A DNA stretch of 16,029 bases, from IMG/VR virus record IMGVR_UViG_2684622579_000002; one strand, given 5' to 3'. The notes under the pieces are model-generated. The model was not told the DNA's origin. It did no database searches and saw nothing but the letters and a program-made list of their open reading frames with translations. Positions 1 to 14,330 of this stretch are shown piece by piece. Positions within the stretch are counted from its first letter, which is position 1, and every line of letters begins with the position of its first letter. Source of the DNA: a virus (Duplodnaviria; Heunggongvirae; Uroviricota; Caudoviricetes). A program made the translations under genes and the position numbers.

Positions 1-555
1 ATGCTTATTGGCTATGTACGTGTATCAACAAATGACCAGAATACCGATCTACAACGTAATGCGCTGAACTGTGCAGGATGTGAGCTGATTTTTGAAGACA
101 AGATAAGCGGTACAAAGTCCGACAGACCAGGACTGAAAAAGCTGCTCAGGACATTATCGGCAGGTGACACGCTGGTGGTCTGGAAACTGGACCGACTGGG
201 GCGCAGTATGCGGCATCTTGTCGTGCTGGTGGAGGAGTTGCGCGAACGAGGCATCAACTTTCGTAGTCTGACGGATTCAATTGATACCAGTACCCCAATG
301 GGGCGCTTTTTCTTTCATGTGATGGGTGCCTTGGCTGAAATGGAGCGTGAACTGATTGTTGAACGAACAAAAGCTGGACTGGAAGCAGCTCGCGCACAGG
401 GACGAATTGGTGGACGTCGCCCCAAACTTACACCAGAACAATGGGGGCAGGCCGGACGATTAATTGCATCAGGCGTTCCTCGCCAGAAGGTGGCGATCAT
501 CTATGATGTTGGTATATCGACACTGTATAAGAAGTTTCCGGTCGGAGATAAATGA
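1..555 (+). CDS. pin: Serine recombinase, DNA invertase of the Pin/Hin/Gin family (complete, 184 aa)
   Basis: N-terminus MLIGYVRVSTNDQ with the catalytic Ser context typical of resolvase/invertase enzymes; conserved RLGR and GRFFFHVMGALAEMERELI motifs; C-terminal HTH-like region (IASGVPRQKVAIIYDVGISTLYK). ATG at 1, TGA at 553-555. Confidence 0.85.
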   Translation: MLIGYVRVSTNDQNTDLQRNALNCAGCELIFEDKISGTKSDRPGLKKLLRTLSAGDTLVVWKLDRLGRSMRHLVVLVEELRERGINFRSLTDSIDTSTPMGRFFFHVMGALAEMERELIVERTKAGLEAARAQGRIGGRRPKLTPEQWGQAGRLIASGVPRQKVAIIYDVGISTLYKKFPVGDK

Positions 556-615: not shown

Positions 616-1485
<870 letters not shown>

Positions 1486-1580
1486 CTAAGCCTTTGAATT
1501 TACATAGTACAAAAAAGATACTTTTCCTCATAATGTGAATTAATTTTATGTTTCGTTTGATGATTGGACCGGTCTCGAAA

Positions 1581-1614
1581 CCCGTAGCCACGTCGTATGC
1601 AAGAACGTGCTACG
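1581..1614. repeat. Hairpin repeat copy B (9 bp stem with one bulge, 13-nt loop tcgtatgcaagaa) upstream of the GIY-YIG gene
   Basis: Direct-orientation near-identical copy of the element at 555-596; stem arms 1584-1592 and 1606-1613. Confidence 0.6.
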
Positions 1615-1885
1615 ACTGGCTGGTGAACTTCCGATAGTGCGAGTATTGAATGATTTCCAACTGTTATCGATTTTGCGTATTTTTTGCATGAGAGGATTTT
1701 TACCTCCTCCCGCCGATCCTCCATGGCTTTACGCCTGTGTCTCTGGTCTGCTATGTGCCAATAGCGGACATTGCTAACATTATCTAATACACAACAAAAA
1801 ATGTCAGTCTATATGATATCATCTACTGTCTTTTAAATTCCCCACCTGTCTCAGTTATTAGTGTTAGATAAGGAATCAAAAAATT

Positions 1886-2560
1886 ATGAGAGCATATAAA
1901 TTTAGGTCGGCTTCTCAAATAGCATTTACCCTAGATATAATTTTTAATCGTAGGCTTTTTTGCTCTGACTGGAAAATGTTGAATGACCCAATGGAAGGGA
2001 TGTTTGTTTTCTCTCATCAAACATCTGATGGTTACGACTATAAAAAAGAAATTCAGCAGATAATAGAAGAAAAGAAACGGCTTAAGGTTTGTTCTCTTTC
2101 AGCTACATATGAGTCTCATTTACTTTGGGCTCACTATGCTGGGGGGTTTGATGGTTGCGCTATCGAAATTGAAATCCCAGACAATCATCACAGTATTAAA
2201 CAAATTGAATATAGAGGTGTATTTGCAAATTTAGCAATGCCCAATATTTATAGTCCTGATGAACTTGCTAACCAAGTTTTATCCTCTAAATATCGAGAAT
2301 GGGAATACGAACAGGAAGTTAGGATTTTGCAAACGAATGAGTGGTTTTACTTAGATAAACCAGTTCGACGAGTAATAGCAGGGCATAGAATGCCTTCGGC
2401 ATTATTTGAAGCCATGAATATAATATGCAACTCGATGGGGATTGAATTTTGCCGTACTGGAATTGGTGATGAGGGGATTGATGCCGATTATGTTGAGCCC
2501 TCAAAAATTCTAACGCCGAATAATCATCTTGACTGGGATGTACTAAAAAATGACCGATGA
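1886..2560 (+). CDS. Hypothetical protein, DUF2971-like (224 aa)
   Basis: ORF with ATG at 1886, AGGA 11 nt upstream, AT-rich codon usage. LWAHYAGG and EWEYEQEVRIL motifs resemble what I recall of the DUF2971 family; this is unverified. Confidence 0.5.
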   Translation: MRAYKFRSASQIAFTLDIIFNRRLFCSDWKMLNDPMEGMFVFSHQTSDGYDYKKEIQQIIEEKKRLKVCSLSATYESHLLWAHYAGGFDGCAIEIEIPDNHHSIKQIEYRGVFANLAMPNIYSPDELANQVLSSKYREWEYEQEVRILQTNEWFYLDKPVRRVIAGHRMPSALFEAMNIICNSMGIEFCRTGIGDEGIDADYVEPSKILTPNNHLDWDVLKNDR

Positions 2561-2699
2561 ATTAGAGATTTATATGGTTAGCAGAGTGTAAGGCTCAAGA
2601 TTCCCACGCTCAATAACCAATTGATTGTGAATAACTTTCACCCACAATTGCTCGATATGAAACTATGAGCAATTGTGATGTAAATGTATGCAACAGGTT

Positions 2700-3326
2700 T
2701 TATATCTTATTCCCAAGTATTAACTGTGTTGAGCGAGCCATAATTCTAAATATAAATGGCATACCCTCTGTTAGCTCATCGAGTGTTGGCGTTCGCCTGC
2801 TTGCTTCCAAAAGTATTGAACGCAGAAACTCAACTTCTGGATCACATGCAATTTCTTCATCCAATGCCTTAAGTTTGCCTTTTATTTCTTTTATCTCTGA
2901 CAAACTATGGTTGAGGGTTTCACTTCCCTTTATTTCTGAAAGTATACGTCTTTCATGGTAATTAAGTTGCTCACGGAAAAACAATGCCATACTGGCTTTC
3001 TTTACTAAAAGCTCCATTTCCTTTCTTTTTTTCTCAAGATCTAAGATTTCTTCTTGAGTTGAGTTTTTATTCGTTTTTAGGGATTTTAACTCACTAATAG
3101 TCTTAGTTATGGACTCTAATGAAGTGGCCTCAAGCTGTTCTAAATCTGACTGTGTAATAGCAGGCTTCGACAATGAATAGATGCAAACAATAGTCATTAC
3201 AAAACCTACAATAGCCATCCCATTTAAATAAATTGGCAGTTCCAATTTATTTAAATACGCAAATAAACCACCTATAATGAAATAAGCCATACTTAACAAA
3301 ACCAGTACAGTACAAAACCGCCTCAT
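2700..3326 (-). CDS. Membrane-anchored coiled-coil protein (208 aa), function unknown
   Basis: Two N-terminal hydrophobic segments (VLVLLSMAYFIIGGLFAYL and GMAIVGFVMTIVCIYSL) followed by a charged heptad-like region (EEILDLEKKRKEMELLVKK). GAGG SD 6 nt upstream of the ATG at 3324-3326. Confidence 0.55.
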   Translation of the reverse strand: MRRFCTVLVLLSMAYFIIGGLFAYLNKLELPIYLNGMAIVGFVMTIVCIYSLSKPAITQSDLEQLEATSLESITKTISELKSLKTNKNSTQEEILDLEKKRKEMELLVKKASMALFFREQLNYHERRILSEIKGSETLNHSLSEIKEIKGKLKALDEEIACDPEVEFLRSILLEASRRTPTLDELTEGMPFIFRIMARSTQLILGNKI

Positions 3327-3754
3327 TCTAACCTCGTTAAATTTTTTTAGTTTATATGGTTAACCTACTAAAACCTTGTTCCCAGCATTTCGAGCAGGAA
3401 CTTTACGTTCCTCACTTGAGCAAGCTACTGCGGCAACACAATATCTTAACTTAATAAACTTAACTAGCAAGCTACTCATAACGTCCGCTCTTCGCTCATA
3501 ACAGACATAAACTTCAGTTATGGCATAAAGGTATGCATGCTGGGTGGGGAAAGTATGAAGGAAAAGAAGACTGCTGCGCCGTTTGTCGTCACGTTTATCT
3601 TCATTGGCTATGCAAGTCGTAATACAAGGTGGGACAAAACTGAGACACATAAGGCCTCGCAATGGCTTGCAAGGCTTTACATGTTTTGATGTAGTGGGAC
3701 GTGTGAGCGCAGTGTTGATGGGGTAATGCTTTGAATTAGAAGCGGATTCTTATA

Positions 3755-3800
3755 ATTCGTAATGCGAAGGTCGTAGGTTCGACTCCTATTATCGGCACCA
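3755..3800 (+). other. 46-nt 3' fragment of a tRNA-Thr(CGU)-like gene (anticodon loop through CCA) lacking the 5' half: probable att core or direct repeat at an island junction
   Basis: attcgtaatgcgaaggtcgtaggttcgactcctattatcggcacca contains an anticodon loop with CGT, a T-arm GGTTCGACTCC and an acceptor 3' strand TATCGGC-A-CCA. No complementary GCCGATA acceptor 5' strand is present upstream, so this is not an intact tRNA. Confidence 0.7.
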
Positions 3801-3964
3801 TCACCTAGTTTTCCCAAGTCAACCCACATCAACAAAATCATTTAAAAACATATATATTACGTTATTTTCATACGTTTGAGGTCAACCCTTGTCTCTTGAA
3901 ATCAACACGCGGTTGGGGGCACAATCAGGGGCATGTTCTGTTCGGTCTAGGAAATGTGCCCCCA

Positions 3965-5155
3965 ATGATGCTGAATGCCCGCAAGGTTGAAGCTGCGAAA
4001 GGAAAAGAGAAGAGCTACAAGCTGTTTGATGGAGGTGGCCTATACCTTCAGGTCGAACCTAATGGCTCGCGTTACTGGCGTATGAAATACCGTTTTGCTG
4101 GTAAAGAGAAACGATTGTCCTTTGGTGTTTATCCAACAGTCACACTTGCTGATGCCAGACAAAAACGAGAAGACGCGAAGAAACTACTCGCAGCAGGTGA
4201 AGATCCCGGCGAAGTCAAAAAAGCCAAAAAGCAGGCTTTAAATGCAGCGATTGAGACACTTAACCCATTCAGAGAAGTGGCGTTAGAGTGGCACAAAATG
4301 AAATCACCCAAATGGTCTGAGGGCTATGCTTCCGACATCATTGAGGCATTCGAGAAAGACATTTTCCCGCATATTGGGCACAGACCTATAGCTGATATTC
4401 AGCCCCTTGAACTGCTTGAAGTTCTGAGGTTGATAGAAGCTCGAGGCGCTATGGAGAAAGCGAAGAAAGTCCGTCAGCGATGCGGTGAAGTTTTTCGCTA
4501 TGCCATCGTAACGGGTAGGGCAATCTACAATCCGGCACCGGATCTTGCCAGTGCGATGCAAGGACATGAAGCAGTCCACTATCCATTCCTCAAAGCCAAC
4601 GAACTACCGGAGTTCTTTAATGCCCTTAATTCTTATTCAGGAAGTCCAATTGTATTGTTGGGGGCGCATTTACTTATCCTGACAGGTCTACGAACTGGAG
4701 AACTACGAGCAGGTGAGTGGCGAGAGGTGGATTTTGATAATGCGGTGTGGGAGATCCCAAAAGAACGTATGAAAATGCGTAGGAGCCATATTGTCCCGTT
4801 GTCAAAACAAGCATTATCCCATCTCAAAAGTTTGAAAGAACTAACTGGGAACTACCCGCTGATGTTCCCTGGACGCAACGATCCTAGCAAATTTATGAGT
4901 GAAGCAAGCATTAATCAGGTGTTTAAACGTATTGGATATGCAGGGCGTGTTACGGGGCATGGTTTCAGGCATACGATGAGTACAATCCTACATGAGAAAG
5001 GATTTAACAGCGCTTGGATTGAAACCCAGCTTGCTCATTCGGACAAAAACTCTATTCGTGGAATTTATAACCATGCCCAATATCTCGAAGGGAGAAGAGA
5101 AATGATGCAATGGTATGCTAATTATTTATCTGAGCTAATTGGTACTCATAAATGA
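3965..5155 (+). CDS. int: Tyrosine recombinase, P4-type integrase (about 396 aa)
   Basis: N-terminal MLNARKVEAAKGKEKSYKLFDGGGLYLQV is the characteristic P4-integrase N-terminal arm; C-terminal catalytic region has HGFRHTMST and a downstream tyrosine context (IRGIYNHAQY). Immediately follows the tRNA 3' fragment. Start placed at ATG 3965/3968 rather than the TTG at 3896 given in the ORF track. Confidence 0.9.
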   Translation: MMLNARKVEAAKGKEKSYKLFDGGGLYLQVEPNGSRYWRMKYRFAGKEKRLSFGVYPTVTLADARQKREDAKKLLAAGEDPGEVKKAKKQALNAAIETLNPFREVALEWHKMKSPKWSEGYASDIIEAFEKDIFPHIGHRPIADIQPLELLEVLRLIEARGAMEKAKKVRQRCGEVFRYAIVTGRAIYNPAPDLASAMQGHEAVHYPFLKANELPEFFNALNSYSGSPIVLLGAHLLILTGLRTGELRAGEWREVDFDNAVWEIPKERMKMRRSHIVPLSKQALSHLKSLKELTGNYPLMFPGRNDPSKFMSEASINQVFKRIGYAGRVTGHGFRHTMSTILHEKGFNSAWIETQLAHSDKNSIRGIYNHAQYLEGRREMMQWYANYLSELIGTHK

Positions 5156-5976
5156 ATATTTTAAAAATTAATAATACTGATTCTCTGCTCAGAGATTACT
5201 ACCAGTTGGATGAAGCTTCAGAAAAAATTGGTTGTAGTGAAAAGGATATACTCTGGTTTGCCAGAGAACGAGATGTAGAGCTATGCATGGAATTCCATGA
5301 TGATGAGTATGATGTTTCATGTGGTTTGAAGATTGATGGTCAAATGGATGAGTTCTTATCTAATCTGAAATATTTACCACGAGATAGAAATGGCAATATT
5401 ATGTTGTCAGACTTAAGTTCTATAAGAATCCCTGATGAAGATAATTTAATTGATAAAAATGGTTTTATTCGATGTTTCATATCCGGTTTATGGGCTGTTG
5501 ATTATGAATATAAAGATCTGTTAGTTAAGCATGAGGGGCAACCGGATTCTTGGCCTATTCATTTTCTACTGGCGGGTACGCCTAATATAAATTGTAAGGT
5601 AATTCTTTATGTAAATTATGATGAAAAAGAAAATTATTATCTTTTTGAGGTTTTGTGGATTACAAAGGTACAGATTCAAAAATTCATTGATATAGTCTTA
5701 TGCGAACAAAAGCGGATAAAAAACGCCAATAAATATAAATCACAATCTGAGGCGCAAAAACAAAAACATGCTGTTCCTCGAGCTGAAATACTCATGGCTA
5801 TTATTTCGCTCTATCATCGTGATATGAGGCTAAGAAGAGAGAGTCCAGCAGCGATAGCTGATTATCTTTTTCAACATGCCAGTGAGTTCTGGCCTAAGAC
5901 CGGAGAACCGCCTTTGAGCTATGATACTGTTGTTAGTTTGCTACGTAGTTGCATGAAAAACATTAAGTTTAACTAA
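5152..5976 (+). CDS. Hypothetical protein (274 aa), AT-rich, translationally coupled to the integrase
   Basis: ATGA overlap with the integrase stop (ATG 5152, TGA 5153-5155); AT-rich codon usage unlike the GC-rich replication module; no motif I can assign. Confidence 0.6.
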   Translation: MNILKINNTDSLLRDYYQLDEASEKIGCSEKDILWFARERDVELCMEFHDDEYDVSCGLKIDGQMDEFLSNLKYLPRDRNGNIMLSDLSSIRIPDEDNLIDKNGFIRCFISGLWAVDYEYKDLLVKHEGQPDSWPIHFLLAGTPNINCKVILYVNYDEKENYYLFEVLWITKVQIQKFIDIVLCEQKRIKNANKYKSQSEAQKQKHAVPRAEILMAIISLYHRDMRLRRESPAAIADYLFQHASEFWPKTGEPPLSYDTVVSLLRSCMKNIKFN

Positions 5977-6101
5977 ATATTAACAATTATTGTGGCTAAT
6001 GATTTTGGATTTTTTTCATTAGTCACATTTTTCTCATTTATAACCTATGTTTTAATTTTCCGTGTTGAAGCCAATAGACTTAGATAAACGGAGAATGATG
6101 A

Positions 6102-6392
6102 ATGTTATCTAAACATGATAATACTACTTTGCAACGACCTTCAATGGATTCTCTGATCGATATGAAGTTTATTACTTCCGATTGTTTATTAAGTGATAAA
6201 TGGATTTATCGATTGATTTCTCTGAATCGCTTTCCAAAACCTATAAAAATAGGTCGGATGTCACGATGGCGCGCTGCTGATTATTATAAGTGGCGAGATG
6301 GGTTTGAAGAAAACTCAGGTCAACATTTTGAGGGAATGAGAAATAAGGCAAGAGCAATTAATAAAGGGAATAGATTATCACCTACTCCCTAA
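6102..6392 (+). CDS. alpA: AlpA-family phage transcriptional regulator (small DNA-binding protein)
   Basis: IYRLISLNRFPKPIKIGRMSRWRAADYYKW resembles the AlpA/phage regulatory protein HTH signature; GGAG SD 8 nt upstream of ATG 6102. Shorter starts at 6144 or 6162 are possible. Confidence 0.7.
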   Translation: MLSKHDNTTLQRPSMDSLIDMKFITSDCLLSDKWIYRLISLNRFPKPIKIGRMSRWRAADYYKWRDGFEENSGQHFEGMRNKARAINKGNRLSPTP

Positions 6393-6424
6393 GCCTTAAT
6401 TGATAGTTAGTAATATTTAACTGA

Positions 6425-6598
6425 TTAGCCTTTAGGGTCAATCCCGCGTGATTGGAGTTCTTTGCGTAAAATTCTTTTAATCCAAGTTGCCAACGCGCTA
6501 TCTCCATCTTTGCGCATTTCGTTTTCGAGTTGCAACCTAAAATCGTCGGTAAGACGCATTTGGAATGGTGGAGAACGTTTCTCTTGTGGTGTTGACAT
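6425..6598 (-). CDS. Arc/MetJ-type ribbon-helix-helix DNA-binding protein (57 aa), absent from the supplied ORF track
   Basis: Hand-translated minus-strand ORF MSTPQEKRSPPFQMRLTDDFRLQLENEMRKDGDSALATWIKRILRKELQSRGIDPKG; the PPFQMRL segment resembles the Arc N-terminal beta-strand motif (PQFNLR). Start codon overlaps a palindromic operator. Confidence 0.6.
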   Translation of the reverse strand: MSTPQEKRSPPFQMRLTDDFRLQLENEMRKDGDSALATWIKRILRKELQSRGIDPKG

Positions 6599-6638
6599 GG
6601 TAATTACCCTAGAATATGATGACTACATGGTAATTACC
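6595..6638. promoter_or_regulatory. Two copies of the 14-bp repeat ACATGGTAATTACC, each containing the perfect palindrome GGTAATTACC, 30 bp apart: putative operators
   Basis: Palindromes at 6599-6608 and 6629-6638; the first overlaps the start codon of the Arc-like gene, the second lies in its promoter region, within the divergent intergenic region 6599-6729. Confidence 0.55.
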
Positions 6639-6666
6639 ATTGTAAGTATAGTTCGCTTGTAAAAGC

Positions 6667-6701
6667 AATGCCCGATTGTGCGGGAACACAAATCGGGCAT
6701 T
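6667..6701. promoter_or_regulatory. 14-bp-stem inverted repeat (AATGCCCGATTGTG / CACAAATCGGGCATT, loop cgggaa) in the leader of the replication operon
   Basis: Arms 6667-6680 and 6687-6701 are complementary with one bulge; located 29 nt upstream of ATG 6730; no U-tract follows. Confidence 0.45.
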
Positions 6702-6729
6702 TAACCAACCGTTATAAGAGGTAACGAAG

Positions 6730-6906
6730 ATGGCTAAACAGAAGTGTACCTGGTTATTTGCGGCGATCAACCGCAGTCAACGCAATGCCCGTCCTGTGAT
6801 GTTAAGGATCACCGCAGATAACGAGCGGTCAGCGCGGCGCAGACTTGCCCCGGACTATGTACTGAGCTTTGCCGGGCGCATTCCCTGCGGAGGTGAACAT
6901 GCGTAA
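6730..6906 (+). CDS. Small protein (58 aa), first gene of the replication operon; possibly Icd-like
   Basis: Hand-translated MAKQKCTWLFAAINRSQRNARPVMLRITADNERSARRRLAPDYVLSFAGRIPCGGEHA; AAGAGG SD 8 nt upstream; stop overlaps the next gene start (ATGCGTAA). Family assignment is from memory and weak. Confidence 0.5.
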   Translation: MAKQKCTWLFAAINRSQRNARPVMLRITADNERSARRRLAPDYVLSFAGRIPCGGEHA

Positions 6907-7258
6907 TTATCCGCACCCCGGCGAACGCTGGCAGCATGAACGTGGCTGGACGGTCACGATTATCCGATTAATAGAAGCCTCGCCCTCTGTGGCGCTGGTT
7001 AATCCTGAATTCAGCTGTGAAGTGCTGATACGTCATGACAGCGACAACCAGCTTTCTTCCTGCCCTCTGGCATGGTTTGAACAGCGGTATACGCGCCTGT
7101 TTGATGTACCGCTCTTTAAGCCTGCACCAGCTCCTGCAGGCGGTAGTGGTTCCGGCCCGCTGACACTGCATCCGTCTGTGCTATTTATCCGCTGGCGGGA
7201 GCGTAGCATATGGCGTTCTGCTGAGCCTGACGACGGTCACTATTCAAAGTTTCTCTGA
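6899..7258 (+). CDS. Hypothetical protein (120 aa)
   Basis: ATG at 6899 preceded by GGAGGT; GC-rich codon usage consistent with neighbours; the ORF track extended it to an upstream alternative start at 6869. Confidence 0.5.
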   Translation: MRNYPHPGERWQHERGWTVTIIRLIEASPSVALVNPEFSCEVLIRHDSDNQLSSCPLAWFEQRYTRLFDVPLFKPAPAPAGGSGSGPLTLHPSVLFIRWRERSIWRSAEPDDGHYSKFL

Positions 7259-7289
7259 CAAAATACCGCTGAAAACGGAGTAATCCACG

Positions 7290-7574
7290 ATGAATATTTC
7301 AAACGGGCACAACGGTGCTCAGGGCCACACTTTGCCTGAAAAACACAATACCGGTGCTTTTGCCTATGGGTTGTCAGAGGACAGTTTCGGAAAGCTGACC
7401 CGCGCAAGAAATGCCTGCGACATGCTCCAGCTTCTCTTTTCTGAATACCCGTCTCAGGCCGGAGCACTGGACGCTGGCTGTGCGCATGGTGTCGCCGCGC
7501 TGATGGAGTACCTGCTGGCAGATTTGACGGATATTGCACACAGTTGCGCACTGATTGAAGGAGGTGCCAGATGA
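7290..7574 (+). CDS. Hypothetical protein (94 aa)
   Basis: ATG 7290 with GGAG 8 nt upstream; stop overlaps the next start. Confidence 0.5.
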   Translation: MNISNGHNGAQGHTLPEKHNTGAFAYGLSEDSFGKLTRARNACDMLQLLFSEYPSQAGALDAGCAHGVAALMEYLLADLTDIAHSCALIEGGAR

Positions 7575-7954
7575 ACCAGCCGCAGGTTTCCATTTTCCCG
7601 GCAGAAATGACCACCGCGCTTTACCGGCGGGCTATTGCTTCAGCATGGCGGCAGAAAATGCTGAACGAAACTGGCAGTGATCAGTATGGTCCGCACAGCC
7701 TGACGGTGGAGCGTATTGAAATGGCCATTGCGCTGCATATCGAGTGCGTACTGATTAACGAGTACGGCGAAGTGCAGGGCGCCGCTACCGCGCTGGCACT
7801 GCTGACTGACATGCTGGAGCCGTCACTGCTGACCGCGCCGCCGGTACTGACCGCGCGCGGCTGTGAAGTGATGGCGGAGATGTACCGCACGCTTCCGGCG
7901 GCCTTTGATGACTTCTGCAGTACCGGTGTGACGTTGTATGAGGGGGAAGTATGA
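7571..7954 (+). CDS. Hypothetical protein (127 aa)
   Basis: ATG 7571 with GGAGGT SD; ATGA overlaps at both ends indicate translational coupling into the primase gene. Confidence 0.55.
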   Translation: MNQPQVSIFPAEMTTALYRRAIASAWRQKMLNETGSDQYGPHSLTVERIEMAIALHIECVLINEYGEVQGAATALALLTDMLEPSLLTAPPVLTARGCEVMAEMYRTLPAAFDDFCSTGVTLYEGEV

Positions 7955-10623
7955 CAATACGGACGGTTACGCAGATTTCAGCCGCCGCACGGGGGAAATG
8001 GCCCGTTATTCTGCAGATGCTGCGTATTGATGTACCTGAAAACGGCAGGCACGGTCCCTGCCCGAAATGTGGGGGCAAGGATCGTTTTCGCCTTGATGAC
8101 CTTGACGGGCGCGGGACGTGGATCTGCAGCCAGTGTGGCAATGGTGACGGTCTGGATCTGGTTAAGCTCGTAACCGGTTACAGCGTCAGAAAGGCTGCGC
8201 AGGAGGTGGCGCAGGTGCTTAATGTGCCGGATGTGCAGGAACTGCCTGTTAAGCCTGCCAGACAAAAAGCCCCTAAACGAGACATGGGTCTTACCGTGGC
8301 GGCGCTGATGAAAGAGAGCCACACGGGAGAAAGCGCCTATCTGACAGGAAAAGGGTTCGCCGGATACCCGGCCTCTCTGACCGGAAGCGTGCAGCATATC
8401 AGCGGTAAGGATTTTCCTGCCGGTTCCCTGCTGTTACCACTCACGACCAACACCGGAGCCGTGACCGGTGCACAGCTTATCGCCCCGACGGGTGAAAAAA
8501 GCATACTGCCCGGCAGCACGATGAAAGGCGCGTTTGTGTCGCTCAGCCCGTTACCGTCTGAACCACCGGTACAGGTGGTGATTACCGAAGGTTACGCTAC
8601 GGCGCTGACGGTAAGCCAGCTCACTGCCGGATGCGTAGTGGCTGCCATATCTGCGGGCAACCTGCCCAATGTGGCGCAGTCGCTGCGGGCACGCTGGCCT
8701 GAGGTAAAAATTATCATCGCCGGTGATAACGATTTTCAGGACGGGGGTGAGAATCCCGGCAGAGCCTTTGCTGAACGGGCGGCAAAAGCTGTTGGCGGCT
8801 GGATGACGCTGCCACCAGGAGAGATTAAGGCTGACTGGAATGACTTTCATCGGGAGCACGGTATTACCCGTGCCCGTGAAGCCTTTCGCAACGGTCTGGT
8901 ACTGTGCGGGGAAGGCCGCACGCAACTGCCGCACGGGTTCCGTCTTACCCAGGAATATCTCTGGTATGAAAAGCAGGTACAGCGCAACGGTGAGACGGAG
9001 ATCCAGAACGTCAAAATATGCAGCCCGCTGCGCGTGACGGCAATTACCTGCGATGCCGATGGCGGTAACTTCGGACGACTGCTGGAATGGGAAGATACGT
9101 GGGGTGAGTGTCGCCGCTGGGCGATGCCAATGGAAATGCTGAGCGGCAGTGGTGAGGAACTGCGCCGGGTACTGCTGGTTAACGGGCTGTCTTATATCAG
9201 CACCACCGGTGAGGCACGCGCACGCCTGATGGAATATATCTCACTGTGTAAACCGGAACGCCGCGTGACCTGCGTCAGTCGTACTGGCTGGCATGGTCAG
9301 GTTTACGTCCTGCAGGATGAGGTCAGCGGTGAAGGTGCAGAGGGTGTCATTCTCCAGACCACTTCCGTGCAGGGGCGTGATTTCCGCGTGTCGGGCACAA
9401 CAGAGGAATGGCGGGAGCATGTATCCCGCTACTGTACCGGCAACTCCCGCGTGGCATTTGCTGTCAGCCTGGCCTTTGCTGCACCACTGTTACGGCTGGT
9501 TGGTATGGACGGCGGCGGCTACCACCTCAAAGGGGAATCGACAGACGGTAAGACCACCACCATGAAAGCGGCAACCTCCGTCTGCGGCGGGCCTGACTAC
9601 TGGCAGACATGGCGGGCCACCGGCAACGCGCTGGAGGGATGCGCCAGCCGCCGTAACGATGCCGCCATGATGCTTGATGAGATCCGGGAAGTTGACGGAC
9701 GCGAGGCAGGCAATATCGCCTACATGCTGGCAAACGGTCAGGGCAAGGGCCGTGCCGGTACGGACGGTGAGCTGCGTACCCGTAAGCAGTGGCGCCTGTT
9801 GTTCTTTTCAACTGGCGAGTTGTCTCTGACCGAACATGCGGCAAAGGCCGGTGAGCGTACTTTTGCCGGGATGGAAGTCAGGATGATCCAGATCCCCAGC
9901 GATTCCGGGAAGTTTGGCGTTTTTGAGGAGCTGCACGGCTTCGACAGCGGCAAGGCTCTGGCAGAGCATCTTGAATGGGCCACGTCCTGCTACTACGGTT
10001 CGCCGTTCCGGGAGTGGCTGAAAGCACTGACCGCTGATCTTAACGGACTAACGGCACAGGCAAAATCGCTGATGAAGGAATATGCTGCCGCCCTGACTCC
10101 GAAAGATGCAGGCAATCAGGTGGGCCGGGCTGTGAACCGCTTTGCACTGGTGGCGATGGCAGGTGAACTGGCAACCCGTCTGGGTATCACCGGCTGGCCT
10201 GAGGGTGAAGCACTGCGGGCAACCCGCGTCTGCCTGAACGCATGGCTGAAAGATCGCGGGCACACCGCCAATCAGGAAGATATCGCCGCACTGGAGCAGG
10301 TTCGCAGTTTCTTTACCGCGAATCAGTACAGCCGCTTTGCAGACTGGTATGACGAGCGCAACCGCCCCGGCAATATGGTGGGCTGGCGCAGGGTGGAGAA
10401 AGGCAGTACCGCGCAGGGCACGGAAGCTGTCACTACGTTCTATGTCATGCCGTCCGGCTGGAAAGAAATCTGCAGGGGATTTGACCCGCGCAAGGTGGCG
10501 CGTCTGTGCGCAGATCGTGGATACCTGCTGCCCTCCACTGATGGCAAACTCCAGACAACCATTCGCCCGCCAGAGATGAATCCCCGCAGGCTCTATGTCT
10601 TCAACAGCGAGGTGCCGGGTTAA
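7951..10623 (+). CDS. P4-alpha-like primase-helicase (890 aa): zinc ribbon, TOPRIM and C-terminal P-loop NTPase domains
   Basis: N-terminal CPKCGG...CSQCG zinc-binding motif; TOPRIM-like VVITEGYATALTV and IIIAGDNDFQD; Walker A-like GESTDGKTT. GAGGGGGA SD upstream of ATG 7951. Confidence 0.9.
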   Translation: MTIRTVTQISAAARGKWPVILQMLRIDVPENGRHGPCPKCGGKDRFRLDDLDGRGTWICSQCGNGDGLDLVKLVTGYSVRKAAQEVAQVLNVPDVQELPVKPARQKAPKRDMGLTVAALMKESHTGESAYLTGKGFAGYPASLTGSVQHISGKDFPAGSLLLPLTTNTGAVTGAQLIAPTGEKSILPGSTMKGAFVSLSPLPSEPPVQVVITEGYATALTVSQLTAGCVVAAISAGNLPNVAQSLRARWPEVKIIIAGDNDFQDGGENPGRAFAERAAKAVGGWMTLPPGEIKADWNDFHREHGITRAREAFRNGLVLCGEGRTQLPHGFRLTQEYLWYEKQVQRNGETEIQNVKICSPLRVTAITCDADGGNFGRLLEWEDTWGECRRWAMPMEMLSGSGEELRRVLLVNGLSYISTTGEARARLMEYISLCKPERRVTCVSRTGWHGQVYVLQDEVSGEGAEGVILQTTSVQGRDFRVSGTTEEWREHVSRYCTGNSRVAFAVSLAFAAPLLRLVGMDGGGYHLKGESTDGKTTTMKAATSVCGGPDYWQTWRATGNALEGCASRRNDAAMMLDEIREVDGREAGNIAYMLANGQGKGRAGTDGELRTRKQWRLLFFSTGELSLTEHAAKAGERTFAGMEVRMIQIPSDSGKFGVFEELHGFDSGKALAEHLEWATSCYYGSPFREWLKALTADLNGLTAQAKSLMKEYAAALTPKDAGNQVGRAVNRFALVAMAGELATRLGITGWPEGEALRATRVCLNAWLKDRGHTANQEDIAALEQVRSFFTANQYSRFADWYDERNRPGNMVGWRRVEKGSTAQGTEAVTTFYVMPSGWKEICRGFDPRKVARLCADRGYLLPSTDGKLQTTIRPPEMNPRRLYVFNSEVPG

Positions 10624-10649
10624 GGCTTTGCGTGAGTCTTATTTATTAA

Positions 10650-10845
10650 GGGTAACAGGTGAAACAGGTGGAACAACCGTATTTTACAGGGCTGAATCTG
10701 TTCCACCTTCTGAAATAGTGAGGTGGAACAGATGTAACGCCAGCCAATCCGCTGTTCCACCTTGTTACCCGCGATGTTCCACCGGTGCAGTGTATATAAA
10801 TGCTTTATAAAACAAATGGGTAACACATGTTTCACCTGTTACACC
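10650..10845. repeat. Iteron cluster: five copies of the 9-mer GGTGGAACA/TGTTCCACC in alternating orientation, bounded by a 15/16-bp inverted repeat, with an adjacent AT-rich tract
   Basis: GGTGGAACA at 10667-10675 and 10722-10730; TGTTCCACC at 10699-10707, 10753-10761 and 10775-10783; the forward-reverse pair recurs with 55-bp periodicity. Outer inverted repeat GGTAACAGGTGAAACA (10651-10666) versus TGTTTCACCTGTTACA (10828-10843). AT-rich tract gtgtatataaatgctttataaaacaaatg at about 10790-10817. Confidence 0.65.
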
Positions 10846-10933
10846 GCATCAGGGACATAAAGCAGACTGAAACAGAGGGCATTTTTATCTGGCTGGCTTT
10901 CATAGCCACGTCTGAATAACCGCAAGCGCCCGT

Positions 10934-10951
10934 TGTACCAGCCACCACACA
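10934..10951 (+). promoter_or_regulatory. TGT-N12-ACA dyad (TGTACCAGCCACCACACA), candidate Ogr/Delta-dependent late promoter element for the sid/psu/ogr operon
   Basis: The motif centre lies about 80 bp upstream of ATG 11024, compatible with the roughly -55 placement of this element in P2/P4 late promoters. Confidence 0.4.
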
Positions 10952-11023
10952 CTGAGCACCGATAGTGTGCTTGTGTCAGCCACGACACAATTGACGTAAC
11001 GAACCAACCCGACAGGAGAAGTC

Positions 11024-11767
11024 ATGAACAACACCGCAGTGAATAACAACCTTTCCACTTTTCCGGCTGTAACGCAGCGGGCACTGGAAACCATGAACAC
11101 AGCCAGAAACGCATGGCTTGAAGCACGTCGTCAGCAGAAAGCGGCAGCGGATAATATTGCGACAATCCGCCAGCGTCGCGCTGAAATGGAAGCCACGACG
11201 AACACACTGAATGAGGAGTGGCGCACGCTGTTTCGTGAAAGTCAGGGCGTGGTCTCAAAGGAAATGAAAAAACTGCGCACGGAAATTGCGCTGGGACGAG
11301 AAACTCTTGAGGATTTTGATGAGCTGCTGGAGGCTCAGGAAAGCGAAAATGCACTTTTGCCGCAGAAAGCTGCGGAATTAGCCGGAAAGTATATCCACGC
11401 GCATAACATCCTTGTGGATATTCGCGCAAAACAAATCTGGGAAGATTTTATGCAGTCGCATGGAAAAGCGCTTATTCAGACGCTGAGCCTGCTTAAATCC
11501 ACAATGGGCCGGGAAGCCAGTGCCGTTGTGGGTGTGGTGAATTCAGTTAATGACCCGGACACAGTGCTGAAAGACTTTATTCATAAACATATCACCAGAC
11601 CGGCTCTGGCTAACGATGCGATGCCTGAGCAGGACCCGGTGTTTAAACTGGCGGGAGTTGCCCCGGATTATGCGGCGCGTCTGGATTTCAGTAATCAACT
11701 CTCTCCGGCAGCTATGCATAAAATTAAGGTTCGTCAGGAACTTGCTGAGAAGGAGAAAGCAGTATGA
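11024..11767 (+). CDS. Sid/Psu-family protein (247 aa); by size and position probably a Sid-like capsid size-determination scaffold
   Basis: GGAG SD 5 nt upstream; shares NAWLEARRQQKAAAD and DFMQSHGKAL motifs with the downstream Psu-like protein; ATGA coupling to the next gene. Confidence 0.6.
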   Translation: MNNTAVNNNLSTFPAVTQRALETMNTARNAWLEARRQQKAAADNIATIRQRRAEMEATTNTLNEEWRTLFRESQGVVSKEMKKLRTEIALGRETLEDFDELLEAQESENALLPQKAAELAGKYIHAHNILVDIRAKQIWEDFMQSHGKALIQTLSLLKSTMGREASAVVGVVNSVNDPDTVLKDFIHKHITRPALANDAMPEQDPVFKLAGVAPDYAARLDFSNQLSPAAMHKIKVRQELAEKEKAV

Positions 11768-12315
11768 CGGCCCGAGGCACGCCTGACCAGGCACTTACCA
11801 GTTTTCGGAATGCCCGTATTCTGTGGGCCGGACATAATGAGAGCCGAAAAGCCGTTGAACAACAGATAACATCTCTCCTCGCTGCCACAGAAAAACCAGC
11901 AGATTATGCCCGACAGCTCGAATTACTGCGGGAACGTCTGGATGTGCTGAAATGGCAAATTAACTGTGCTGCGCGCGAATGCATTTACTCGCAGCATTTA
12001 CTGATGGAGGCCTGCACAGAAGCCGCTCTCAGCAATTTTATGCAGGCGAATGGGGCAGCCCTGACATCTGCACTGGCTCCGTTCCTGAAGGGGCGCGGAG
12101 GGGTTGACGTTGCGTCCCGTATATTACGCAGTGCTCTGGTTCGCCAGCTGGCAATAACACCGCCTGAAATTGCCGGGGATTATCGTGAGATCCTGGATGA
12201 ATCCGGTTTGATGCCTGACCCCGGGATGATTCGTGATTGCCAGGGTTCTTACACCCCGGCACAACATCTGCGTTTTCAGCAACGCCTGAATGACATTAAC
12301 GATATACAGGAGTGA
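11764..12315 (+). CDS. psu: Psu-like polarity suppression / capsid decoration protein (183 aa)
   Basis: LKWQINCAARECIYSQH and FMQANGAALTSALAPFLKG match my recollection of P4 Psu (VRKWQVNQAAGRYI and FMQQHGTALAAALAP); similar length to P4 Psu. Confidence 0.65.
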   Translation: MTARGTPDQALTSFRNARILWAGHNESRKAVEQQITSLLAATEKPADYARQLELLRERLDVLKWQINCAARECIYSQHLLMEACTEAALSNFMQANGAALTSALAPFLKGRGGVDVASRILRSALVRQLAITPPEIAGDYREILDESGLMPDPGMIRDCQGSYTPAQHLRFQQRLNDINDIQE

Positions 12316-13122: not shown

Positions 13123-14082
13123 ATGCTAACCAGGGCTGAAAATATAAGAAAAATCACAAGCTATTTAGCTATTCTCTCAAGAGAGGTTGAGATTAGTGCC
13201 TCCCTCAATCTTTTGGATATCAACGTTCAAGCGGAATCTTTTTATAGAGATTTCTTAAACTTATGTTATGGATATAATTTAAGAAATACCAATAGTGAAG
13301 AGCAAAACTACCAAGCAATAGATCTTGCTGATGAAGATCGGAAGATTGCTATACAAGTAACTTCAACTTCTGACTTGGGAAAAATTAAGAATACAGTTGA
13401 TGGATTTATAAAAAGTAAGCAATATGAAAAATATGATAGACTAATTGTACTGAATATAACTGAAAAGAAAAAGCACAGATTGAAAGAGTATGGAATAGCC
13501 GGGTGCTATGTAATTAATATCAAAGATGATGTATGGGATTATAAGGATATAATTAGAAAGATAAACGATTTGAATGATTGTGATATATCAACAATATGCT
13601 CATTTTTGGAACGTAATATTAATACTAAAGCTGCTGATAAACCGCCGAAAGAAGTCACAACTATGTTTGCGATGATTGAATTATTGAGTGATGATGCTCA
13701 CCCATTGGCAGGAAATGGATTTATTGAAGAGCCTAATCCTGAAAATAAAATATATAAAAGATTTTCAGATTATTCAGAGCGGTTGATTGGCTTATATACT
13801 GGGTTAGCTCCATTATATAGTGGGATATTTAAGTCAATAAAAGAACAGAGCGATATTGGTATCGTAAGGTACCAAAAGATGAGTTTGTATTTAGAGTCAT
13901 TTAGTGATAAGGTCTTAAGAAGCCATGGTGGAGATCCTATCTTGGCGCTTAATTATTTAAAAGAATATTTTTCTAAACAACTGAGCCAGAGAAATGTAGA
14001 TTACGATGAAACAGCTATCAAATTTTTCTTAATTGAGAATTTAATTGCATGTAACGTCTTTCCTAATTCGGAGATTCTTTGA
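13123..14082 (+). CDS. Hypothetical protein (319 aa), putative effector of a three-gene system; N-terminal region possibly SMEK-like
   Basis: AGGGA SD 6 nt upstream; AT-rich codon usage. N-terminal LNLLDINVQAESFYRDFLNLCYGYNL...IAIQVTSTSD resembles what I recall of SMEK-domain proteins of ABC-three-component systems; unverified. TGATG overlap with the next gene. Confidence 0.65.
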   Translation: MLTRAENIRKITSYLAILSREVEISASLNLLDINVQAESFYRDFLNLCYGYNLRNTNSEEQNYQAIDLADEDRKIAIQVTSTSDLGKIKNTVDGFIKSKQYEKYDRLIVLNITEKKKHRLKEYGIAGCYVINIKDDVWDYKDIIRKINDLNDCDISTICSFLERNINTKAADKPPKEVTTMFAMIELLSDDAHPLAGNGFIEEPNPENKIYKRFSDYSERLIGLYTGLAPLYSGIFKSIKEQSDIGIVRYQKMSLYLESFSDKVLRSHGGDPILALNYLKEYFSKQLSQRNVDYDETAIKFFLIENLIACNVFPNSEIL

Positions 14083-14330
14083 TGTTAAGTTTTTTTTCGA
14101 AAGATGAGGATTTGACAAAATCCCCTCCTGTTGTAGGGGCTAAAATTCTTAATTTATTTGACGAAACAAAAAAAGAAAAAATTAGTATTTTCGATTTAGC
14201 AAAAGAATTAAAGAAAAACAACTCTCTAGGAGTGCGTGCAATTTATTTTGGAATGGTCTTTCTTTATACTCTTGATCTTATCGATTTCGATGAGCCATAT
14301 GTGATAAATAAAAATGTTAAGAATAAATAA
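14082..14330 (+). CDS. Small protein (82 aa), putative middle/adaptor component
   Basis: ATG 14082 overlaps the upstream TGA (14080-14082); its 3' end overlaps the ATPase start by 17 nt; AT-rich. Confidence 0.55.
   Translation: MLSFFSKDEDLTKSPPVVGAKILNLFDETKKEKISIFDLAKELKKNNSLGVRAIYFGMVFLYTLDLIDFDEPYVINKNVKNK

What the first reader, a model, noticed from the sequence alone, without database searches (positions are those of the whole stretch)
1886..3326. AT-rich convergent pair: DUF2971-like protein and a two-TM coiled-coil membrane protein next to the invertase
Both genes are AT-rich and lie in an accessory context between a phage-type invertase and an integration site. Membrane-anchored coiled-coil proteins and DUF2971-type proteins recur in phage-defence or abortive-infection neighbourhoods. 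Their functions are unknown, and because they are convergent each would act as a single-gene unit.
Basis: inference. Interest (0 to 1): 0.45.

Follow-up and report, generated by a model that had tools for sequence, protein, structure and literature searches.

The report
Two-gene accessory cassette in prophage
The two AT-rich convergent genes are real and travel together in a 1.76-kb cassette bounded by inverted repeats at the end of an E. coli prophage: one encodes a DarT-like ADP-ribosyltransferase-fold protein already listed as a single-gene phage-defence candidate, and the other an uncharacterised two-pass membrane protein, so this is a new member of known kinds rather than a new system.

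Summary
Window 1886-2560 (+, 224 aa) and 2700-3326 (-, 208 aa) are conserved, convergent, AT-rich genes (GC 0.33-0.38). They lie between a pin invertase plus a PD-T4-3 defence gene and a tRNA-fragment att site followed by a P4-like integrase.

The 208-aa protein has two N-terminal transmembrane helices and a long helical domain. Its family has 207 cluster representatives, no Pfam or PADLOC model and no conserved partner.

The two genes co-occur only in close enterobacterial variants. There they share one 1761-bp cassette (1746-3506) whose ends match the inverted repeats annotated in P2 "Z-region" GenBank records. The same ends flank other cargo elsewhere.

Verdict: each gene most likely acts alone. 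Defence is plausible for the ART-like gene and unproven for the membrane gene. Interest is modest.

The parts
1746..3506 (.). Discrete 1761-bp accessory cassette that carries both genes
   Evidence: The same boundaries (within 10 bp) recur at 81-99.5% nucleotide identity in at least 8 contexts with unrelated flanks: a PAI-536-type island, a Citrobacter islet and metagenome contigs. At this same slot, strain QDFD216 shares the flanks and end motifs but carries different cargo.
1746..1772 (+). Left terminal inverted-repeat motif, GTCTGCTATGTGCCAATAGCGGACATT, itself a 9-bp-stem palindrome
   Evidence: It is an inverted repeat with 3480-3506: 27 nt, 81% complementary. The pattern gives 0 matches in 200 shuffles. 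It matches the feature annotated 'left inverted repeat' in GenBank AJ512680.1, AJ512676.1 and AJ512683.1, the P2 Z-region records. As single-stranded DNA it folds at -5.8 kcal/mol, z -2.8.
1886..2560 (+). 224-aa PDC-S31 / DUF2971-type protein with a DarT-like ADP-ribosyltransferase fold
2643..2677 (.). Palindrome between the two stop codons, CACAATTGCTC...GAGCAATTGTG; a candidate bidirectional terminator
   Evidence: RNA fold of 2556-2705 gives -36.3 kcal/mol, z -2.47, with 3 of 200 shuffles as good. There is no T-run on either strand, so terminator function is only inferred.
2700..3326 (-). 208-aa membrane protein with a two-TM hairpin (about 3-26 and 30-53) and a long helical C-terminal domain; uncharacterised family
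   Evidence: The conserved core is MELLVKKASxxLFL (residues about 104-117) and LDEEI (155-159). No Pfam, PADLOC, NCBIfam or PHROG family fits.
3480..3506 (-). Right terminal inverted-repeat motif; on the minus strand it reads GTCTGTTATGAGCGAAGAGCGGACGTT
   Evidence: Homology to QDFD216 and TF5 resumes exactly here, at window 3480/3481.
1579..1745 (.). Left flank of the cassette slot, conserved among strains that carry different cargo
   Evidence: Window 1579-1772 equals L005 3555-3749 at 95.9% identity. It also matches L006 3001-3191 at 84.9%.
616..1389 (-). Context: GIY-YIG protein that matches the PD-T4-3 single-gene defence system
   Evidence: PADLOC PD-T4-3, E 2.7e-140. Pfam LEM-3_GIY-YIG, E 2.4e-14.
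1..555 (+). Context: pinE-type serine invertase at the tail-fibre end of an e14-like / Mu-type-tail prophage
3755..3800 (+). Context: tRNA 3'-end fragment (att repeat), where homology to P4-like satellite insertions begins
   Evidence: Read from the sequence (...GGTTCGACTCCTATTATCGGCACCA). There is no complete tRNA. Matches of H1-H3 and H11-H15 start at 3755.
3896..5155 (+). Context: tyrosine integrase of the P4-like satellite. RefSeq starts it at about window 3965.

Best explanation
Window 1746-3506 is one inverted-repeat-bounded accessory cassette. It is of the kind first annotated around the Z/fun region of P2-like phages. It sits in the variable slot between the pin invertase plus PD-T4-3 end of an e14-like prophage and its att site. 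The cassette carries two independently transcribed cargo genes that read inward from the two ends.

Gene 1 (224 aa) is a stand-alone PDC-S31 / DUF2971-family enzyme with a DarT-like ADP-ribosyltransferase fold. My inference is that it stays inactive until phage infection. It would then use NAD+ to ADP-ribosylate a nucleic-acid target (less likely a protein target), stopping replication or translation in an abortive-infection manner, as proposed for the DUF2971 system Aristaios.

Gene 2 (208 aa) is an N-in/C-in hairpin inner-membrane protein with a long cytoplasmic helical domain, from an uncharacterised family confined to mobile elements. My inference is that it acts on its own as a lysogenic-conversion factor at the membrane, such as superinfection exclusion or a membrane-directed abortive effector.

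Shown: gene reality, family membership, fold, absence of conserved partners, cassette boundaries and cargo swapping. Inferred: antiphage role, ADP-ribosylation and its substrate, the membrane protein's function, and how the cassette moves.
For: Identity of gene 1:
- PADLOC PDC-S31, E 3.4e-82, full length.
- RefSeq names it DUF2971.
- E142 and E144 (the ExE position) and Y84 are invariant in 57 sequences from many phyla. This fits the motif description for DUF2971 in PMC12522546.

Stand-alone status of gene 1:
- 72 of 73 genome loci have no homologue of the membrane protein.
- No immediate-neighbour family is found in more than 3 of 62 neighbours.
- A different DUF2971 gene sits alone in a 1.05-kb cassette with the same ends (L135 5001-6047).

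Defence association:
- Neighbours include RM subunits, GajB-like helicases, SduA_C, HEPN, RES and FRG, AbiU2 and a GTPase conflict system.
- PD-T4-3 is adjacent in the window.
- Aristaios is a single DUF2971 gene with an ART fold and an abortive-infection phenotype.

Gene 2:
- 207 representatives share the same architecture.
- There is no conserved neighbour. Neighbours are integrases, transposases, repressors, TIR, ParE-like and BstA proteins.

Cassette:
- Searches support the boundaries and end motifs.
- The annotated P2-EC46 Z-region also holds two convergent ORFs between the same repeats.
Against: - Nothing here shows antiphage activity. PDC-S31 is only a candidate, and no paper in the held library mentions it.
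- The motif I histidine is absent (K5-F6-R7), and I could not superpose catalytic residues.
- A free-standing ART toxin with no antitoxin needs an unexplained control mechanism.
- For gene 2 the only evidence is context. Fold searches were uninformative.
- The two genes are always together in the enterobacterial variants with at least 80% identity. A functional link in that clade is therefore not excluded.
Confidence: 0.55

Rival explanations
1. The two genes form one two-component system. The membrane protein would act as sensor, anchor or antidote for the ART-like enzyme, or as its downstream effector.
For: All TM homologues with at least 80% identity to the window's protein (variants at 100, 97, 94, 86 and 80%) have the DUF gene as their convergent neighbour, across several flanking contexts. 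A lone ART toxin would need a control partner.
Against: The linkage is explained by shared carriage in a single 1.76-kb cassette. TM homologues at 73% identity or below never have a DUF neighbour (L011, L023-26, L007-10, L029-30, L110-L131). DUF homologues at 79% (Billgrantia) and below lack it, 72 of 73 loci. The genes are convergent, with separate promoter sides and a palindrome between them. That layout is unlike toxin-antitoxin or sensor-effector operons.
Confidence: 0.15
2. Gene 1 is an offensive ADP-ribosylating toxin or effector, used in interbacterial competition or against a host, rather than a phage-defence protein.
For: PMC12522546 predicts DUF2971 as an ART family and estimates that about 18% of members are effectors, including Legionella lpg1268. 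In one context the cassette lies next to an orphan CDI-type toxin and immunity pair, RNAse_A_bac and CdiI_2.
Against: The protein is a compact 224 aa with no signal peptide, no TM segment and no delivery domain. No secretion-system or immunity gene is conserved beside it. Its neighbours are defence-type genes, and PADLOC lists the family as a defence candidate.
Confidence: 0.1
3. Neither gene is a defence gene. They would be ordinary 'moron' cargo, such as a membrane stress or lysogenic-conversion protein and a degenerate or regulatory ART-fold protein, that hitch-hikes on a mobile cassette.
For: Cassettes with the same ends carry clearly non-defence cargo: flxA in Qin, LysR plus LysE, and LysR plus hydrolase plus MFS. 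The membrane protein matches no defence model.
Against: The ART-like protein is 50-80% identical across distant phyla, with invariant candidate catalytic residues. This argues for a conserved enzymatic activity under selection. It is repeatedly embedded among defence genes. Other cassettes of this type carry Lit-family exclusion genes.
Confidence: 0.2

Closest known systems
PADLOC PDC-S31 (single-gene phage defence candidate) / Pfam DUF2971 (PF11185)
   Same: Full-length HMM match (residues 1-205 against profile 1-202 of 208, E 3.4e-82). The gene is single with no conserved partner and lies in defence-island-type neighbourhoods.
   Different: Nothing structural differs. It is simply a member. 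The Pfam DUF2971 score is just below the gathering threshold (20.6 vs 22). The family has no tested function.
DarT (DNA ADP-ribosyltransferase toxin of DarTG)
   Different: There is no DarG macrodomain antitoxin next to it in the window or in related loci. Sequence identity is 6-9%, and there is no HMMER-level similarity to any PDB chain. The motif I histidine is missing. A conserved C-terminal subdomain (about 150-205, GIGDEGIDAD) has no DarT counterpart.
Aristaios (Lactococcus plasmid single-gene antiphage system; DUF2971, ART fold, abortive infection; PMC11381338)
   Same: It has the same Pfam family and the same predicted fold class. It has a single-gene architecture and is carried on a mobile element.
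   Different: Aristaios is 316 aa and comes from a Gram-positive plasmid.
P2 Z/fun-region inverted-repeat cassettes (GenBank AJ512676, AJ512680 and AJ512683; Nilsson, Karlsson & Haggard-Ljungquist 2004, cited from reference lists only)
   Same: The terminal motifs are the same. Both hold AT-rich foreign cargo, and both have two convergent ORFs reading inward from the repeats. Cargo is swapped between strains at a fixed slot.
   Different: Here the slot is not in a P2-like phage. It lies downstream of the pin invertase of an e14-like prophage. The same cassette also occurs in CP4/PAI-type islands, in a Citrobacter chromosomal islet and in a P2-like phage between S and V.
Prophage membrane exclusion proteins (e.g. 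SieB, Imm; from general knowledge)
   Same: It is a small inner-membrane protein encoded in accessory regions of prophages and islands.
   Different: No sequence or profile match to SieB or to any Pfam, PHROG or PADLOC family. The resemblance is one of category only.

Membership tests
PADLOC PDC-S31 | Significant full-length match to a PDC-S31 profile HMM | tested here: met
   PDLC04991: E 3.4e-82, 273 bits, residues 1-205 against profile 1-202 of 208. Three further PDC-S31 models also match.
PADLOC PDC-S31 | Single-gene system with no obligatory partner gene | tested here: met
   No neighbour family occurs in more than 3 of 62 immediate neighbours across 36 loci. The TM partner is absent from 72 of 73 loci.
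PADLOC PDC-S31 | Demonstrated antiphage activity | not testable with these tools
   The family is a candidate only. No paper in the held library mentions PDC-S31.
Pfam DUF2971 (PF11185) | Score at or above the Pfam gathering threshold | tested here: inconclusive
   The score is 20.6 bits against a cut-off of 22, covering the whole 89-position model at residues 80-147. Some close homologues carry a precomputed PF11185 hit (P0016, P0030, P0106). RefSeq names the identical protein DUF2971.
ADP-ribosyltransferase superfamily (DarT-like / HYE clade) | ART beta-sandwich fold | tested here: met
   [not shown]
ADP-ribosyltransferase superfamily (DarT-like / HYE clade) | Catalytic motifs: H or R (I), Y (II), E or ExE (III) | tested here: inconclusive
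   E142-x-E144 and Y84 are invariant. There is no His in strand 1 (K5 F6 R7). This agrees with the DUF2971 description in PMC12522546. I could not superpose the residues on DarT.
ADP-ribosyltransferase superfamily (DarT-like / HYE clade) | NAD+-dependent ADP-ribosylation activity | not testable with these tools
   This needs a biochemical assay.
DarTG toxin-antitoxin system | Adjacent DarG macrodomain antitoxin in an operon | tested here: not met
   The only neighbour is the convergent membrane protein, which has no macro domain. No macro domain appears among the top neighbour families in related loci.
P2 Z-region-type inverted-repeat cassette | Cargo bounded by the left and right inverted repeats annotated in AJ512680.1 | tested here: met
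   The left motif is at 1746-1772 and the right at 3480-3506. The left motif's 33-nt consensus (sequence taken from L002, differing from the window's copy at four positions) aligns to the 'left inverted repeat' feature of AJ512680, AJ512676 and AJ512683.
P2 Z-region-type inverted-repeat cassette | Different cargo at the same slot in related genomes, with breakpoints at the repeats | tested here: met
   Window against QDFD216 and TF5: homology runs up to 1772 and resumes from 3480/3481, and the cargo between is unrelated.
Type II toxin-antitoxin pair | Two co-directional, co-transcribed adjacent genes that co-occur across relatives | tested here: not met
   The genes are convergent. Co-occurrence is limited to cassette variants with at least 80% identity.
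Known superinfection-exclusion or membrane defence families (SieB, ZorA, KwaA, etc.) | Profile match of the 208-aa protein | tested here: not met
   Pfam, NCBIfam, PHROGs and PADLOC give only weak coiled-coil-type hits for the protein (best E-values 0.0015-0.046). Of 63 family members, at most 4 hit any one Pfam family, and only one member hits ZorA, at 3.6e-5.

The most novel reading that the evidence does not exclude
The paired heterotypic palindromic end motifs may define a widespread integron-like cassette-exchange system in Enterobacteriaceae. The left loop is TGTGCCAG and the right loop is TGAGCGAA. An unidentified recombinase or transposase would swap cargo at fixed slots in P2-like, e14-like and lambdoid (Qin flxA) prophages and in CP4/PAI-type islands. 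Cargo includes defence genes such as this ART-like gene, Lit-family genes and other DUF2971 genes. The left motif occurs in 2719 of 5426 complete E. coli genomes, and cassettes occur in tandem with spacers of about 18 bp. Within that reading, the ART-like gene and the membrane protein could also prove to be a new two-part defence module.
Probability: 0.2. Interest if true: 0.7.

Novelty: new member of a known kind. Interest (0 to 1): 0.35.

Why it matters
If gene 1 is active, it would be an enterobacterial, experimentally tractable example of a free-standing DarT-like ADP-ribosyltransferase used in defence without a macrodomain antitoxin. That raises the question of how such a toxin is held in check and what it modifies. 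The family is strikingly conserved, at 50-80% identity across phyla.

The membrane protein belongs to a family of 207 cluster representatives with no annotation at all.

The cassette ends give a practical handle. Searching for the two motifs finds accessory and defence cargo slots in about half of E. coli genomes. The mechanism that moves these cassettes is, as far as I could establish here, still unknown.

Tried and rejected
- Sequence search of the gene 1 profile against all PDB chains gave only spurious beta-2-microglobulin hits.
- Pfam, NCBIfam, PHROGs and PADLOC gave no credible family for the membrane protein or for 63 of its relatives.
- The heptad-periodicity test for a coiled coil was not significant.
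- The promoter and terminator consensus scan gave 10 promoter-like sites against 8.5 expected, so it says nothing.
- Rfam found no family in the window, and ARAGORN found no tRNA.
- I looked for a conserved partner of either gene in 73 plus about 50 loci and found none.
- I looked for target-site duplications next to the cassette ends and saw none by eye.
- A full-text search for the motif sequence found nothing relevant. The 2004 P2 paper and Odegrip 2006 were not readable.
- The phage collection holds no close homologue of either protein. There are only 30%-identity DUF relatives in four small Vibrio 'PE003/PE004' elements.
- I rejected the DarTG reading because there is no macrodomain. I rejected the TA-pair reading because the genes are convergent and do not co-occur beyond the cassette.
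Full report
**What the window is**

The window is Escherichia coli DNA. Nearly all complete E. coli genomes match parts of it, but none holds this exact arrangement.

- Positions 1-555 encode a pinE-type invertase at the tail-fibre end of a prophage with Mu/e14-type baseplate genes.
- Positions 616-1389 (-) encode a GIY-YIG protein that matches the PADLOC model of the single-gene defence system PD-T4-3 (E 2.7e-140).
- From about 3755 a tRNA 3'-end fragment starts a P4-like satellite, with its integrase at 3896-5155, running to about 12800. ARAGORN finds no whole tRNA.
- The satellite's own cargo at 13123-16029 is a SMEK_N protein plus a DUF2326 / PDC-M68B protein.

The finding therefore lies in the stretch between the invertase and the att site. 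That stretch differs among strains. NADC1036 has an AraC regulator there, QDFD216 a 497-aa hypothetical protein, and other strains hold restriction-modification genes or an AAA ATPase.

**Check of the observation**

They are convergent and AT-rich, with GC 0.33-0.38. Both are conserved genes.

The membrane protein has two hydrophobic helices at its N-terminus. After them comes a 76-residue helix, then shorter ones. My simple heptad test did not confirm a coiled coil, so "long helical domain" is the safe wording.

Homologues conserve the first twelve residues, and R2 is invariant in the 12 aligned homologues. The 208-aa start is thus more likely than the 196-aa start used by RefSeq.

**Gene 1**

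- Pfam gives DUF2971 just under threshold (20.6 against 22 bits).
- PADLOC gives a full-length match to PDC-S31, a single-gene "phage defence candidate" (E 3.4e-82).
- The family is unusually well conserved, at 53-81% identity in Halomonadaceae, Azospirillum, Burkholderia, Verrucomicrobia, Ignavibacteriota, Acidobacteriota and others.
- An AlphaFold model built on 57 sequences is confident (pLDDT 83.8).
- HMMER sees no PDB relative, so the link is at fold level only.

This agrees with two papers. A 2025 survey predicts DUF2971 to be an ART family related to DarT, AbiGi and Tox-ART-HYD1. It describes a poorly conserved motif I histidine, a conserved tyrosine and an ExE motif (PMC12522546). A 2024 study found that a single lactococcal DUF2971 gene, Aristaios, gives abortive-infection-type phage resistance and has an ART fold (PMC11381338).

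In my alignment Y84, E142 and E144 are invariant, and strand 1 reads K5-F6-R7 without a histidine. Assigning these residues to the catalytic motifs is an inference, because I could not superpose the structures.

**Is gene 1 a single-gene unit?**

In 73 loci from one-genome-per-species contigs, only the near-identical Citrobacter locus also encodes the membrane protein. Immediate neighbours are heterogeneous, and no family occurs in more than 3 of 62.

Many neighbours are defence-type:
- type I and type III RM subunits, with the gene sometimes embedded with 4-bp overlaps;
- GajB-like UvrD helicases, SduA_C, HEPN, RES, FRG and DUF4917;
- HEPN_AbiU2 plus a second DUF2971 gene in Billgrantia;
- a GAAD / GASH / DO-GTPase conflict system in a metagenome-assembled genome.

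There is no macrodomain neighbour, so this is not a DarTG system.

**Gene 2**

Word-indexed search found only 13 relatives. A profile search of 1.84 billion representatives found 207, of which 176 have E below 1e-10. Almost all are 195-240 aa with the same layout and a conserved MELLV(K/R)KASxxLFL core.

None of Pfam, NCBIfam, PHROGs or PADLOC has a family for it, and fold searches were uninformative.

Its genomic settings are accessory parts of mobile elements:
- after the integrase of a 186-like prophage;
- in a Methylotenera integrative element next to a staphylococcal-nuclease-like gene and umuDC;
- beside IS3 elements, a TIR gene and CP4-type genes;
- among runs of small phage-like genes.

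No neighbour family recurs. Neighbours include integrases, repressors, CAP12-type TIR, a ParE-like toxin and BstA. The positive charges (R2, R3 before TM1; K54 after TM2) suggest that both termini are cytoplasmic, which is an inference.

**Why the two genes are together**

All membrane-protein variants with at least 80% identity (100, 97, 94, 86 and 80%) have gene 1 as convergent neighbour. Those at 73% or below never do.

The explanation is physical. Window 1746-3506 is a discrete module found with the same ends at 81-99.5% nucleotide identity in contexts whose flanks are unrelated. These include:
- the PAI-536/CP4-type island downstream of a YeeP-like GTPase, in 21 of 5426 complete E. coli genomes;
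- a Citrobacter islet between an orphan CDI toxin/immunity pair and fec genes;
- several metagenome contigs.

An 80%-identity copy also lies between the S and V genes of a P2-like phage (L018). There the detectable homology is shorter, window 1878-3343, with one motif copy nearby.

The ends are imperfect inverted copies of a roughly 27-nt palindromic motif. The left copy is GTCYGCTnTGTGCCAGnAGCGGACATT. The right copy, read on the other strand, is GTCYGYTnTGAGCGARGAGCGGAC. The pattern is not expected by chance.

At the window's own slot, strain QDFD216 shares the flank and the motifs. Window 1579-1772 matches it at 95.9% and 3481-4200 at 98.6%, but it carries an unrelated 497-aa gene between them.

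The same motif pair bounds other cargo:
- flxA in the Qin prophage;
- LysR plus LysE;
- a ParA gene plus two hypothetical genes;
- GNAT plus a hypothetical gene;
- a different DUF2971 gene on its own (1.05 kb).

A Lit-family exclusion gene in the Z/fun position of a P2-like prophage is also preceded by the left motif. Cassettes can lie in tandem, separated by about 18 bp.

A 33-nt consensus of the left motif (taken from the PAI-536 copy, L002) is found in 2719 of 5426 complete E. coli genomes. In the phage collection it occurs almost only in P2-like phages.

These repeats are not new. GenBank entries AJ512680, AJ512676 and AJ512683 ("P2-EC46/30/58 proviral Z-region") annotate them as "left inverted repeat" and "right inverted repeat". 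In AJ512680 they flank two convergent "putative lysogenic conversion" ORFs. [quoted passage not shown] I saw that paper only in reference lists. I could not read it, so I do not know how much of the distribution described above it already reports.

**Mechanism and rivals**

The best-supported reading is two independent cargo genes in one Z-region-type cassette.
- Gene 1 is a stand-alone DarT-like ART. It probably acts as an abortive-infection effector that ADP-ribosylates nucleic acid after infection.
- Gene 2 is a membrane-acting conversion or exclusion factor of unknown mechanism.

The palindrome at 2643-2677 between the stop codons may insulate the two transcripts. The steps from "ART fold and defence neighbourhood" to "defence by ADP-ribosylation" are inference.

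The rivals are:
- a true two-component system in this clade, favoured by strict co-inheritance but disfavoured by loss of the pairing beyond the cassette and by the convergent layout;
- an offensive toxin or effector, although there is no delivery domain or secretion context;
- plain non-defence cargo, since cassettes of this type also carry flxA and LysR/LysE.

**Novelty and score**

- Gene 1 is a new member of a catalogued candidate family whose fold has already been predicted in print.
- The cassette ends have been annotated since 2003-2004.
- Gene 2 is truly uncharacterised, but there is nothing yet to say what it does.
- The most interesting open points are how a free-standing ART toxin is controlled, what the membrane family does, and what moves these cassettes.

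I score interest at 0.35.

Noticed in passing
window 616-1389 (-): The GIY-YIG gene next to the invertase matches the single-gene defence system PD-T4-3 (PADLOC E 2.7e-140; PHROG 5356). It is absent from strain QDFD216, where the cassette flank follows pinE directly.
   Followed up: partly
window 1746-1772 and 3480-3506; L133 5001-6015; L134 5001-7031; L005 3723-5951; L031 9641-12301; L135 5001-6047 and 6066-8181; L136 5001-8101; L137 5001-7783: A family of cassettes is bounded by the same pair of palindromic inverted-repeat motifs and carries varied cargo: flxA of Qin, LysR plus LysE, a Lit-family gene, another DUF2971 gene, and ParA. Some lie in tandem with spacers of about 18 bp. The left motif occurs in 2719 of 5426 complete E. 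coli genomes. It is annotated as an inverted repeat only in the P2 Z-region GenBank records, and the mover is unknown.
   Followed up: partly
window 13123-14082 and 14314-16029 (+): The P4-like satellite's variable end carries a SMEK_N-domain protein (Pfam E 5e-46) and a DUF2326 / AAA_23 protein that matches PADLOC candidate PDC-M68B (E 1.4e-48). GC there is about 0.30. Other strains have Drt3a/b or an AAA ATPase plus an S8 peptidase at this position.
   Followed up: no
window 5152-5976 (+): An AT-rich 274-aa ORF directly after the P4-like integrase overlaps its stop codon. It has no Pfam or PADLOC family and is conserved as 'hypothetical protein' in many strains.
   Followed up: no
window 2700-3326 (-): RefSeq annotates this gene from M13 (196 aa). 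Homologues conserve the 12 residues upstream (MRRFC..., with R2 invariant in the 12 aligned homologues), and a GAGG lies 6 nt before the upstream ATG. The 208-aa form is therefore more likely.
   Followed up: partly
[not shown]
   Followed up: no
phage records PQ189304.1, PQ189312.1, PQ189385.1 and PQ189305.1: The only phage-collection relatives of gene 1 (30% identity) lie in four 13.6-14.8-kb Vibrio cyclitrophicus 'PE003/PE004' elements. These look like small satellite-like or defence elements rather than full phages.
   Followed up: no
L021 / L033 (Billgrantia ethanolica), about 4860-11300: A 79%-identical gene 1 homologue lies in a run of HEPN_AbiU2, a 403-aa unknown, the gene itself, an FRG-domain protein, a second longer DUF2971 protein, a GNAT and a 224-aa unknown. 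This is a probable defence islet with two DUF2971 paralogues.
   Followed up: no
window 11024-11767 and 11764-12315 (+): Two adjacent genes in the P4-like satellite are both annotated 'phage polarity suppression protein' in RefSeq. One of them is called 'septation initiation protein' in some strains.
   Followed up: no
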